Shown here in pieces: positions 25,821 through 30,795 of a DNA stretch of 64,000 nt (position 1 is the stretch's first letter; the number at the start of each line of letters is the position of its first letter). Source of the DNA: Glaucostegus cemiculus (lineage: Eukaryota); NCBI GenBank assembly GCA_976551045.1, contig CDPCPM010000010.1:20956001-21020000 (forward strand). The letters run 5' to 3'. The translations under genes were made by a program, and so were the position numbers. The notes under the pieces were generated by a model, which had not been told where the DNA came from, made no database searches, and saw only the letters and a list, made by a program, of their open reading frames with translations.

Positions 25821-26729
25821 CATGTTGTTTTGTACAGTTTGTCCCTGTTTGCAGCTTGATTTTCCAGAATATTAATTTTAACCTACTTTTTAAATATTTG
25901 TTAGTCACATGTACATCAAAACACACAGAAAATGTGTCCTTTTGTGTTTAACAACCAATGCCGTCTGAGAATGTGCTGGGGGTAACCCACAAGTGTTCCC
26001 TCCTGTCTTGTACCTGGCACACTAGCCTTGGCAAATCCTGAGTTCCCTGTCCTTTGGTGTTAATCAGGCACATGGATTGAGGGACACGGGCTCATCCAAC
26101 AATCGCAGATTTGATACTAATAACAACCTACTCTTCCTTGTTTTGCCTCTTATACACAGTGTGTACTGCAATTCCACAGCTGACAGCTAAAATTAACTAA
26201 CACTACCAAGACATGGGAAATAATTTGGATCTAGGGATGGATCTCACTACCCCCAAATTCCACAGTTATTCTCATGAAGTTTTAGATCATGTCCCATATT
26301 CTTTAAATCCATCAGGTTTTATTTCAAAATATGGTATCACTGTCAGGACAGTCCCCATGTTCCATGGCCATTTGGGTTATGGCAATTTACCCTTGCAGAA
26401 TTTGCAAACTACTCCACAAAGTTTTGAGGTGCAGAATAAGATTTGCTCTTGTGTAACTTGCAGGGAAGAAAAAGTAAATAAATAAAGACAATTTTGTTGA
26501 TAGTGATGATGTGGCTTTGCATTATGGAGAACTGCAATACAACCTGTTTTCTAGGAACACAGCCCCCTCTTGATTTGGGAATCATCAGTACTACCCTGCC
26601 TGAAATCTCACTTTTTTTTGTTAGTGTCCCAGCGGCTAGGGAATAGGATGCCCTACATGATCTTCATACTGATCCAAATTCTTGCTCAATTGATCAGTGG
26701 TGTTTATATTGACCTGCTTTCTAAATTCT

Positions 26730-27300
26730 ATGTGTTGGTAAATTGGTTTATTATTATCACATGTACTCCCATGCCATCCATACAGATAGTTTCATCACAT
26801 CAGTATATTGAGGTAATACAAGGAATAACAAAAACAATGCAAAATAAAGTGTTACAGTTGCAGAAAAAGTGCAGGCACACAAGGTGCAAGGTCATAACAA
26901 GGTAGGTTGTGAGGTCAAGAGTCCATCTTAACACACTAGGGAACTGTGCAATAGTCTCGTAGCAGTGGGATAGAAACTGTCCATGAGTCTGGTATGTGCT
27001 TTCAGGCTTTTGTATATTCTGCCCGATTTGTGGGGTGGGTGGTTGGGGAGGAAGAAAGAATATCTGAGATGGGGGAGGGCCTTTGATTATGTTTGCTGCT
27101 TTATCAAGGCTACAGGAGGTAAAGACCGAGTCTATGGAGGGGAGGCTGGTTTCCATGATGTGCTGAGCTGTGTCCTCAACTCTTTGCAGTTTCTTGTGGT
27201 CTCAGACAAAGCAGTTGCCATACCAAGCCATGATGCATATGGATAGGATGCTTTCTGTGGTGCATCAATAAAAGAATTGATGAGGGTCAAAGGGTATATG
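26730..27300 (-). mobile_element. Rex1-type LINE 3' end inserted in the provirus env region
   Basis: ETSLPSIDSVFTSCSLDKAANIIK and tail TACATGTGATAATAATAAACC. Confidence 0.8.
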
Positions 27301-27982
27301 CCAATCCATTCAGTCTGTCCCAAAGTAATAGGGACCCATGGTTTAAAGCAAATATTTGGCGTTGTAAATTTGCGTGAGGACTGCATTTTGGTTCTAACCT
27401 TCTAGTGGCACAGTACTATCATGAGCAAGTACAAAGGTGATCAGTTTGGGATACTTTAAACACATTCCTCTGTCTTACAAGACCATATTCATCCTTCATA
27501 TCTTCACCCAATGGTGTGTGCATATAGTTACACAGCTCCTTTGATGACTGTTTATGGGCAGTCTATAGTACTACCATTTTTCTTAATGGCATGATGTCCA
27601 AAGAATAATATTTGAAATGGGTTTCCCTTCAGAGCAGGCCACTGTTTTCCACCTGATACAGGCGATATTGTTGAGCTCCTGATTACACCACTAAGGGAAT
27701 AAGAACGATCTTCACATCAGGGTAGTACTTGCTACCCAGTCTTGAGAATCCCTTTGAGAATGTAGAAATCGACTAAACTTTTGTTGTGTGGGAATATAGA
27801 GGCATGAATTATTGATCTATTTGGGCACCTCATCTTGTTGGATCTGAGCCAGGTTACATCCCAGTGTCCTATTGCCTATTGACCATAAGCATGGCACAGA
27901 ATTCACTTATTCCTGCTTTGTTCTGTTCTAAATCCCTATTATTCAGTAATTTAGTAGCCTTCACATTGCCTTCTACTATTCA

Positions 27983-29280
27983 AGTTAACCTGCCTTAATG
28001 ACTACTGCCTGTTGGTTCTGACATTCCCCTACCATGAAGTGCTTCGCGAGGCTGGTCACAACACACATTAACTCCAGATAACCATGACCCACTGCAACTC
28101 ACCTACCACCGATAAAGGTCTACAGTCGATGCCATCTCCTTGGCCCTACACCAATCTCTAGAATATCTGGACAGTAAAGACACCTACATTAGAGTATTGT
28201 TAATTGACTACAGCACTACCTTCAATACTATAATTCCAAGCAAACTCATCACCAAACTCCAAAACCTGGGACTCAACACCTCCCTTTGCAACTGGATCCT
28301 TGACTTCCTGACCAACAGAGCCGAGCAATCAGTAAGGATAGGCAGCAGCAACACCACCACCACGATTATTCTCAACACAGTGGTGCCCCATAAAGCTGCG
28401 TCCTCAGCCCCCTACTCCCTGTACACTCAGGACTGCATGGCCAGGTTCTTAATTCCATCTACAAGTTTGCAAATGATACCACTGCATTGGATAGTATCTC
28501 AAATAATGATGAGTCAGAGTACAGGAAGAAGATAGAGAGGTTAGTAACATGGTGTCATAACAACCTTTCCCTCAATGTCAGCAAAACAAAAGAGCTGGTC
28601 ATTGACTTCAGGAAGGGGGAGAGGGGTTTGGTGCACATGCTCCTACCTACATTAATAGTGATGAGGTTGAGAGCTCCAAGTTCCTAGGAGTGAACATCAC
28701 CAACAGCCTGTCCTGGTACAACCACATAGATGCCATAGCTAAGAAAGTTCACCAGCGCCTCTACTTCCTCAGGAGGCTAAAGAAATTTGGCATATCTCCA
28801 TCAATCCTTGCCAAATTTTATCAGTGCACCATAGAAAGCATCCTATCTGGATTTATCACAGCTTGGTATGGCAACTGCTCTGCCTGGGACCACAAGAAAC
28901 TGTAAGGAGTTGTGGACATGGCTCAGCACATTATGGAAACCAGCCTCCATGGACTCTGCCTATACTTCTTGCTCATTGGGCAGAAAATGCAAAAGCTTGA
29001 AACCGTGCACTACCAGCCTCAAGGACAGCTTCTATCTTGCTGTTGTAAGACTATTGAACGGTTAACTGGTATGAGAAAATGGACTCTTGACCTCACATTC
29101 TCTCTCATTATGACCTTGAACCTTGCTAACTGCACTGCACTTTCCCCGTAGCTGTGACACTTTATTCTGCTATTGTTATACCTTGTACTACCTCAATGTT
29201 CCATGTAATGAATCTATCTCTATGAACTGTATGCAAGATGAGATTTTCATTGTAGCTCAGTACATGTGACAATAATATTC
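27983..29280 (+). mobile_element. Rex1-type LINE (RT to tail) inserted in the provirus
   Basis: ORFs 28140, 28487 and 28690 ([47 protein letters not shown]). Confidence 0.88.
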
Positions 29281-30795
29281 CAATTTTTGCTTTGTTCTGA
29301 TGCAGGGTTTTAACCTGAAATGTCAACGATTCCTTTCCTCCCACAGATGCTGCTCGACCTGCTGAATTCTTCCAGCAGATTGTTACAACTAATGGGTGTA
29401 TGATTAATTTTAGGCCCATGACAGTTCGAATGTGAGGTCTGTGGTTATGTTTATCTTAGTCAACAATGTGGGTTCCTCTGCTGTTGTCAGAGCAGGTGTA
29501 GTAACGGCACTTGTATGTGTTCATCTGTTTGTGCCAAGATGTACACTCCCACTACTTGGCCTTTTACCTGTTGATTCTTTATGCATTTCTTTACACTGGT
29601 GATTTTAGCCATTCCATGTGGTACTGAACTCCAGTTTATACACATCAAATGTTTACTGCCCATTTTCATCCTCTTGACATCCATAGCTCATTATTCTTTA
29701 AAAGACGTACAATCTGCATTCTATCGTTCTCTGTTCTATGGTTCTTGCTGTGGGAATTGTTTTGATCTCCAGGTTCATCAGGATCAGCACCATCATGGTA
29801 GCCATACTAAGAAAGGGCACAATTCTGGTCCACAGCAGTCTATGAAACCAAGTCGATGCACATACAGTACACTGTACATTTTCTCCCTAGACTGAGCTAG
29901 CTTCTTAGTCCTGTGGATCAGTTAAACAGTTTTAATAGCAATCAATGTTTCCTTCCTTTTTTTTATATCCACACCATCACATGTAATGCTGGTCAATATG
30001 CCCTCACAGACATGCGCACAAAGGGGTATTTTGGGTCACCTACCCTTTCCCTATTTTGGACATTGATTCACTGATGCATTTATTCTTTATCCTGCTCTTG
30101 GATATCTTATGCCCTCTCCTTTCTCAGCTCGTATTGTTGGTTATCTAGTTGTCCCTCCTAATACAGCATTTTACTGTTCCCATTTCCTTGCCACCCATCA
30201 ATATTTACCACTACATGTGTAGAACACCCTGTTATTCATTCAAATGAAGCCTGTCAGGTAGGGTGCTCCAAGCAGATGTATGAATGCACAGGGAAGAATA
30301 TCGACCCATCATTGTTCCATCAGTGCTGTCACCTTTGCCAAACTGGTTTTTAACATCCTGTTCATCCACTCGATCATACCTGAGCTCTGGCTGAAAGAAT
30401 CTGAAATCTCTGCCTAACTCCTAACAATTTACACACCTGCCTTGTAAAGTGTGTACCCTGGTCTGAATCCACCTCTGGAGGAAGTCCCCAGTAAGGGATT
30501 GTATCAAATACATATATTTGGGCTTATGTCCTGGTGCCACACAGGGAAATGCTTCCACTCACCTATCATTACTAAACATTATTTCTTGTCCCTCCTGTAC
30601 TGTGAGGGTTGCAGTCTATCTGTAAGTTCTGTTACAGGTCTTTGGATATTAGTTGGCATGTCATTTTGACCTTGATTGGCTTTCCAAGGTTATACTGGCT
30701 ACATATTATGCATCGCTGGCAAAGTTTAACCAAATCTCTTCCCTTCCCATTCCACCACCAATCCCTCATCAATCTGTCATACTTTGCTTGATGGA

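What the first reader, a model, noticed from the sequence alone, without database searches (positions are those of the whole stretch)
25830..29900. Env-position region of the provirus with fusion-protein-like remnants
Seen on minus between integrase and the 3' LTR: CHAYGQ*AIG/TLGCNLAQIQQDEVPK*I (~27820-27900), IPLVV*SGAQQYRLYQVENSGLL (~27630-27700), and a hydrophobic anchor followed by a basic tail, EIHP*IQIISHVLVVL/ILAVSCGIAVHTVYKRQNK (~26135-26245). I saw no gamma-type immunosuppressive domain or CX6CC motif. Established: lokiretrovirus Env is reported to resemble Mononegavirales fusion glycoproteins. Inference: this could be such a non-canonical env.
Basis: inference. Interest (0 to 1): 0.7.

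Follow-up and report, generated by a model that had tools for sequence, protein, structure and literature searches.

The report
Dead snakehead-type provirus, F-like envelope remnant
This is the broken envelope gene of a long-dead retrovirus copy, likely in a shark- or ray-type genome; its better-preserved relatives are predicted to be built like the fusion protein of measles- and RSV-type viruses, while its polymerase motifs match the snakehead-fish retrovirus rather than lokiretroviruses, which would widen the set of retroviruses known to use that kind of entry protein.

Summary
The three quoted peptides are present where stated and are real env remnants. Each aligns, in order, to a profile of an env family with dozens of broken copies in this genome and two open shark proteins; each beat all 100 shuffles with at least one profile. 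A sister copy on another contig is collinear. The flanking repeat is an LTR. Relatives have RxKR, a fusion-peptide-like segment, heptads and a Cys-containing beta region, and no CX6CC was found in the window. ESM Atlas ranks Mononegavirales F0 first for both shark proteins (0.95, 0.94), and motifs run collinear with published lokiretrovirus Env (by eye). Pfam, PDB and fold searches did not confirm F. RT motifs are of the snakehead-retrovirus (SnRV, clade Huo) type, not loki. This copy lacks the cleavage site, fusion peptide and HR1, most of gag/pro and RNase H; LTR distance is 0.31. Verdict: an old, dead SnRV-clade ERV whose env is probably F-type. I found this pairing in no paper, but this scan reported it twice on other genomes.

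The parts
32620..33190 (-). 5' LTR (ends approximate)
   Evidence: 71-72% identical to 25530-25890; other genomic copies match 33119-32617
31930..32620 (-). short internal remnant; most of gag and pro missing; RT start by eye near 32100-31930
   Evidence: only about 0.5 kb between LTR end and RT-like text; no gag match found; assignment by eye
31400..31465 (-). RT piece
   Evidence: tblastn with P0006
30990..31266 (-). RT core pieces in several frames, SnRV-type motifs; the rest of RT and RNase H are missing
30260..30790 (-). integrase, broken
   Evidence: Pfam PF17921 E 0.0026; 105 matches in genome, self included; tblastn E 1e-14 with P0016-P0019
29385..29830 (-). env 5' part: hydrophobic start (29811-29779, likely signal), N-terminal domain, Thr-rich linker
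   Evidence: 62% DNA identity to the sister copy on C14; hydropathy 2.37 over 11 residues; no match to the family N-terminal profile, z 0.9
27985..29384 (+). LINE fragment plus short repeat, at the place of the missing cleavage site, fusion peptide and HR1
   Evidence: RVT_1 E 0.0003; repeat coverage 28184-29384; profile columns 1-140 score at null level in 4 of 4 env-position pieces
27305..27985 (-). env middle: post-HR1 helix and Cys-containing beta region, frameshifted, with stops
   Evidence: 66% identity to the C14 copy over 27752-27467
26770..27304 (-). LINE fragment inserted in env
   Evidence: repeat coverage by up to 49 loci
26590..26740 (-). env membrane-proximal part
   Evidence: 64% identity to the C14 copy
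26340..26590 (.). probably another insert
   Evidence: absent from the C14 copy; 26367-26491 is 69% identical to an unrelated locus L086
26130..26340 (-). env pre-anchor motif, transmembrane anchor and basic tail, broken
   Evidence: profile score 69, z 11; best of 254 tiles; 70% identity to the C14 copy
25897..26000 (.). short interspersed repeat
25530..25890 (-). 3' LTR, cut short by a repeat at 25371-25536
   Evidence: K2P 0.31 to the 5' LTR over 320 columns
30792..31922 (.). three short repeats inside pol (30792-30918, 31272-31398, about 31620-31922)

Best explanation
This is the broken env gene of an old, heavily deleted endogenous retrovirus that likely belongs to the snakehead-retrovirus clade, and its intact ancestor likely entered cells with a fusion protein predicted to be of the paramyxo/pneumovirus-F type. 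Shown: LTR-pol-env-LTR layout; homology of three env pieces to a family in this genome and in sharks; loss of coding capacity; loss of the cleavage/fusion-peptide/HR1 block; LINE inserts. Inferred from relatives: a signal peptide, an N-terminal domain on a Thr-rich linker, a short F2-like piece, RxKR cleavage, a Gly/Ala-rich fusion peptide, a long HR1, a Cys-containing beta region, HR2, anchor and basic tail. That would work as a cleaved class I trimer that folds back into a six-helix bundle, without the gamma-type CX6CC/ISD module. The locus itself would have no fusion function today.
For: Env homology: (scores above); collinear sister copy on C14, whose anchor region also hits the family profile (E 6e-5; z 13). 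Family: 73 matches in the genome to one open env stretch, 62 to P0002 at E up to 5; 7 of 20 integrase-related loci carry this env within 10 kb (6 of the 7 helped build the profiles); 6 of the 9 best integrase neighbours of the window carry it, while the gamma-env element ranks 19 of 20. F-type: ESM Atlas top hit for both shark proteins is a Fusion glycoprotein F0 cluster (PF00523 on 47% of 156 members; 0.95, 201/256; 0.94, 197/256); motif order matches published loki Env by eye; the model of P0002 has a 57-residue helix followed by a beta region. SnRV clade: RT motifs; a CCHC knuckle in a relative's gag; SnRV-like ERVs are known in elephant shark (PMC4422223).
Against: No PF00523 hit in 18 window frames, in P0001-P0003, among the 25 of 29 families shown for 70 aligned pieces, or in the genome (where the control also rang nowhere). 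PDB profile searches found no fusion protein. Models were poor (pLDDT 37 and 56). Atlas runner-up clusters (baculovirus F/gypsy Env 0.92-0.94, haemagglutinin 0.92 for P0001) are close to the top score. The middle block only narrowly beats genomic background, and plain hmmsearch on window frames was not significant. The 5' env part does not match the family profile. No RT tree was built; RT kinship rests on motifs. No codon-position signal between window and C14 copy.
Confidence: 0.7

Rival explanations
1. The element is a true lokiretrovirus, the first in a cartilaginous fish.
For: Env motif order resembles loki Env. Six chondrichthyan assemblies in the loki paper's Table S2 carry no star, so a find would be new.
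Against: RT motifs follow SnRV, not loki. Family Env differs from the eight loki Envs read in having an extra N-terminal domain and its own pre-anchor motif.
Confidence: 0.04
2. SnRV-clade provirus whose env is a class I fusogen of another type; the F resemblance comes from long helices and generic class I features.
For: No Pfam, PDB or Foldseek confirmation; Atlas also lists haemagglutinin and spike clusters; PF00523 is on under half of the top cluster's members.
Against: Two separate homologs both rank F0 first with 197-201 shared features; the beta-region motifs after HR1 line up with loki Env.
Confidence: 0.18
3. Foamy-like ERV (clade Tu), whose Env is already known to be F-like.
For: Best PDB hits of the family RT are foamy Pol chains (58.8 bits vs 41.8 HIV-2 and 41.1 MLV); foamy Env is F-like (PMC11468914).
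Against: No chain in that result is named SnRV or loki RT, so the ranking cannot separate them. Fish foamy RT rows differ (GY/GFKNSP, V/IYIDD). A relative's gag has a zinc knuckle, which spumaviruses lack (PMC2717909).
Confidence: 0.05
4. The middle motifs are chance readings of decayed DNA and only the anchor is env.
For: Middle block 56.4 vs background 55.3 with one profile and third with the other; P0002 alone ties with background tiles at 50.
Against: The two motifs score separately at the right profile columns and in order; the C14 copy shares the block and scores on its own (1 and 2 of 100 shuffles as high).
Confidence: 0.03

Closest known systems
SnRV clade / clade Huo ERVs: snakehead retrovirus (U26458), elephant shark CmiERV lineage I (PMC4422223), bird Ovex1 (PMC2717909)
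   Same: RT motifs as in SnRV; cartilaginous-fish host likely; env without CX6CC, as reported for Ovex1 ORF3. The two best Atlas structure rows for P0002 are 874-aa chordate clusters (TM 0.47, 0.43), the length of zebra finch Ovex1 ORF3; identity is inferred from length only.
   Different: This copy is far older and mostly deleted. I could not compare it with SnRV or Ovex1 Env directly. The passages read do not describe their Env as F-like.
Lokiretroviruses (Wang and Han, PMC7947760)
   Same: Env plan: signal, RxKR, fusion peptide, coiled coil, TM; collinear motifs after HR1 (by eye); F0 similarity.
   Different: RT motif type; extra N-terminal domain and Thr-rich linker in this family; not reported from the six chondrichthyan assemblies screened.
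Foamy virus Env (PMC11468914)
   Same: Retroviral Env with a paramyxo/pneumovirus-F-like core.
   Different: Foamy Env has an N-terminal membrane-spanning segment; this family has SnRV-type RT and a zinc-knuckle Gag.
Mononegavirales F (PF00523), baculovirus F (PF12259), gypsy/errantivirus Env (PF07253)
   Same: Top Atlas clusters for both shark homologs.
   Different: No significant HMM or fold match; carried by a vertebrate retrovirus.

Membership tests
Lokiretrovirus | Loki-type RT signature (RCPFGY.NSP region, as in the published alignment) | tested here: not met
   Window and relatives show RLPQGFHNS-type text vs loki rows; by eye
Lokiretrovirus | RT groups in the loki clade in a tree | not testable with these tools
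   No loki or SnRV RT was obtainable as a stored sequence (one search found none)
Lokiretrovirus | Env similar to Mononegavirales F (PF00523) | tested here: inconclusive
   Atlas top hit for two homologs; no HMM or fold confirmation
Lokiretrovirus | RxKR cleavage site, fusion peptide, coiled coil | tested here: inconclusive
   Present in relatives; absent from the window, where the block is lost
Lokiretrovirus | Tether plus RNase H; CGIN1-related integrase; smc gene in some | not tested
   RNase H region is deleted in the window; not examined in relatives
SnRV clade (clade Huo) ERV | SnRV-type RT motifs (YP.VA, LDI[SA]NG, RLPQGFH.SP.IFH, LQYVDD, GxK[IV]NP.K) | tested here: met
   window pieces; by eye
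SnRV clade (clade Huo) ERV | Monophyly with SnRV in an RT/Pol tree | not testable with these tools
   No reference sequences held
SnRV clade (clade Huo) ERV | Env homologous to SnRV or Ovex1 Env | tested here: inconclusive
   Only an Atlas structure lead, TM under 0.5, unnamed 874-aa clusters
Gamma-type Env | CX6CC and ISD in TM | tested here: not met
   0 CX6CC in 3 frames; best E 1.7 against a gamma TM from L086; decay weakens this for the window, but the relatives read also lack it
Foamy-like ERV | Gag without zinc knuckle | tested here: not met
   CCHC knuckle in relative L099; window gag is deleted
Provirus | Two LTRs flanking pol and env | tested here: met
   target-site duplication and primer site not established

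The most novel reading that the evidence does not exclude
The SnRV clade, a branch of canonical retroviruses, uses an F-type Env homologous to lokiretrovirus Env. With foamy viruses, three deep retroviral lineages would then share it, making the F-type fusogen the likely ancestral retroviral envelope and the gamma/beta TM a later replacement. This would contradict the published view that loki and canonical Env were acquired independently (PMC9040795).
Probability: 0.35. Interest if true: 0.75.

Novelty: new variant of a known kind. Interest (0 to 1): 0.45.

Why it matters
PMC9040795 states that Env of canonical retroviruses and lokiretroviruses share no detectable similarity and builds an origin scenario on that. 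An abundant SnRV-clade family in cartilaginous fish with a loki-like, F-type Env bears on that scenario. It would also suggest what the unexplained, long-conserved Ovex1 ORF3 of birds is. SnRV is cultured and cloned (PMC12193657), so the fold is directly testable. This particular locus is a poor specimen: it is dead and lacks the fusion machinery. Its value is as an old, divergent member beside a conserved host gene, usable for dating by orthology.

Tried and rejected
DNA searches with the env pieces found only the locus itself or repeats. Single-frame read-throughs found no homolog in the genome (the latter was not the signal-peptide frame) or in the protein collection; an open relative also failed in the word-indexed search. 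tblastx and plain hmmsearch were too weak for the window env. Folding: P0001 with 6 rows, pLDDT 37, no Foldseek hit. P0002 with 70 rows, pLDDT 56: PDB Foldseek best E 2.0, RSV post-fusion F rank 2 at E 2.9, VIA Z 2.7, rmsd 4.2, 88 aligned; BFVD best torovirus spike E 0.07; wide VIA gave only helical bundles. None of these counts for or against F. Viral contigs held no relative of P0006, and A2 was too variable to scan. The repeat at 25371-25536 was first taken for LTR and rejected: it occurs in both orientations beside relatives. The idea that the direct repeat is duplicated gag was rejected. A weak match to L086 is not env homology; L086 is a separate gamma-env family. No tRNA gene in the window.

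Full report
Observation. The quoted peptides are on the minus strand at 27896-27816, 27700-27632 and 26245-26137, each spread over frames with stops. The window lies on contig C10 of a 2.85-Gb genome. A cartilaginous-fish host is inferred from the named env homologs, which come from a catshark and a sawshark; I did not identify the species.

Layout. A direct repeat at 32810-33010 and 25528-25737 (71%) extends to about 33190-32620 and 25890-25530. A genome search gave 14 matches: the two window copies and pieces at 9 other places. It is an LTR, with K2P distance 0.31 over 320 columns. The neutral rate assumed for sharks in PMC4422223 would give about 700 My, which is not credible; mammal-like rates give roughly 70-150 My (my arithmetic). 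Inside are about 0.5 kb of unassigned sequence, RT pieces, integrase and the env position. Most of gag, pro, the later RT and RNase H are missing. Repeats cover 26770-27304, 28184-29384 and three stretches in pol; the large insert is a LINE RT fragment.

Finding the family. Direct searches with the env pieces failed. Searching with integrase gave 105 matches; I fetched 10 kb on each side of 20 of them. Several share an env-like gene with RxKR, a Gly/Ala-rich segment, heptads, a Cys-containing beta region, a Trp/His/Pro pre-anchor motif, a hydrophobic anchor and a basic tail. Seven of 20 carry it and one carries a gamma-type TM (six of the seven helped build the profiles). An open 137-aa stretch of one copy had 73 matches in the genome, not including the window, and 4 hits among 1.84 billion proteins: P0001 (S. 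torazame, XP_072331073.1), P0002 (P. japonicus), a Logan fragment and one repetitive, unrelated protein.

The window belongs to this env family. Plain hmmsearch put the anchor first or second in the window but without clear significance. Frameshift-aware scoring against profiles of natural pieces gave: anchor region 69.5, best of 254 tiles, next unrelated 49.1; middle block 56.4 (best, next 55.3) and 51.4 (third); 5' part z 0.9, no match. Scored separately, the first motif beat 100 of 100 shuffles with both profiles, the second 100 and 96 of 100, the anchor 100 of 100, at increasing profile columns (windows chosen after inspection). Of 8 other LTR loci whose flanks I fetched, one (C14) holds env that is collinear with the window at 62-71% identity, without the LINE inserts. 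Its anchor region hits the family profile independently (E 6e-5). Profile columns 1-140 (cleavage site, fusion peptide, HR1) score at null level in 4 of 4 pieces, and no RxKR/RxRR occurs in 9 of 9 frames examined: that block is lost. Mismatches to the C14 copy show no codon-position bias, as expected after long neutral decay.

Is the env F-like? ESM Atlas ranked a Fusion glycoprotein F0 cluster first for P0001 (0.95, 201 of 256 features) and P0002 (0.94, 197), followed by baculovirus F/gypsy Env clusters; PF00523 is on 47% of that cluster's members, and haemagglutinin clusters also appear. Read beside eight published loki Env sequences, the family shows the same order of motifs after HR1: a helix ending in a Pro-aromatic turn, a hydrophobic strand ending in Pro, a Tyr/Leu strand ending in Asn-x-Gly, then Cys and a 'CP/CR' strand. 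This is by eye. Against: no PF00523 hit, no fusion protein in PDB profile searches, and low-confidence models with no significant fold match. I put the F-type fold at about 0.75 for the family. The Atlas structure search listed two 874-aa chordate clusters first (TM 0.47, 0.43); zebra finch Ovex1 ORF3 is 874 aa, and Ovex1 ORF3 lacks CX6CC and ISD. That link rests on length alone.

Which virus? RT of relatives reads LDI[SA]NG..SIP....Q.K.AFT....YTW.RLPQGFHNSP.IFH....LQYVDD, and the window's pieces follow it. In the loki paper's alignment this is the SnRV row; loki rows read RCPFGY.NSP and fish foamy rows differ. PDB ranks foamy RT first, but no SnRV or loki chain appears in that list. A relative's gag has a CCHC knuckle. 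Six of the nine best integrase neighbours carry the F-like env, and the gamma-env element ranks 19 of 20. No tree with named references could be built. SnRV-like ERVs in cartilaginous fish are known (PMC4422223), and most ERV RTs there are clade III (bioRxiv 2023.10.17.562709).

Mechanism. Shown: a dead provirus. Inferred: the ancestral Env was a cleaved class I trimer of the F type, with a possible receptor-binding N-terminal domain on a Thr-rich linker. An earlier scan note called that domain antibody-like; I did not test it.

Literature seen. PMC7947760: parts 1-2 of 4 of the text and supplement passages (first 300 of 318 pages held). PMC4422223: part 1 of 2. Passages only: PMC9040795, PMC11468914, PMC12583693, PMC2717909, PMC13709493, PMC12287698, PMC12193657, PMC8922424, bioRxiv 2024.03.17.585361, 2023.10.26.564294, 2023.10.17.562709. 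Searches pairing snakehead retrovirus/SnRV or shark ERVs with paramyxovirus, pneumovirus, Mononegavirales or fusogen terms returned 1, 0, 0, 0, 0 and 6 papers, none with a title or passage read that describes SnRV-clade Env as F-like. Subscription papers (e.g. Calcraft 2024, cited in PMC12583693) and bioRxiv supplements were not seen and may already state it.

Verdict. It is an old, deleted SnRV-clade ERV. Two earlier reports of this scan reached the same reading on other genomes; I had recorded mine before seeing them, and they are not independent support. Interest 0.45; new variant of a known kind.

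Noticed in passing
window 43790-40980 (minus): Last three coding exons of a folliculin-interacting protein (FNIP) gene (Pfam FNIP_C E 1e-25); the provirus begins about 8 kb past its stop, in the same orientation. Useful anchor for orthology dating.
   Followed up: partly
L191/L200 (G000:C14 about 31,722,800-31,724,550, +): Sister copy of this element: deleted env plus a full LTR, no pol match within 18 kb upstream.
   Followed up: partly
L086:2900-3600 (G000:C12 about 8.08 Mb): A separate broken ERV with a gamma-type TM (ISD-like and CX6CC) in the same genome.
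   Followed up: partly
window 33760-34173 (+) and short repeats at 29294-29384, 30792-30918, 31272-31398: Penelope-like GIY-YIG fragment (E 0.005). Not tested.
   Followed up: no
L155, L156, L139, L183 (C140 and C34): Four near-identical copies of a broken family env, likely segmental duplications.
   Followed up: no
P0001 and P0002: Annotated open ORFs of about 307 aa in two sharks, covering the cleavage site to mid-ectodomain; could be young copies or retained genes.
   Followed up: no
P0006 (Logan contig, 9029 bases): Open Pro-RT-RNase H protein, best hit (52%) to the family RT; its contig may hold an env for direct comparison.
   Followed up: no
window 26340-26590: Stretch absent from the sister copy and 69% similar to L086:5697-5821; probably an unrecognised repeat.
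   Followed up: partly
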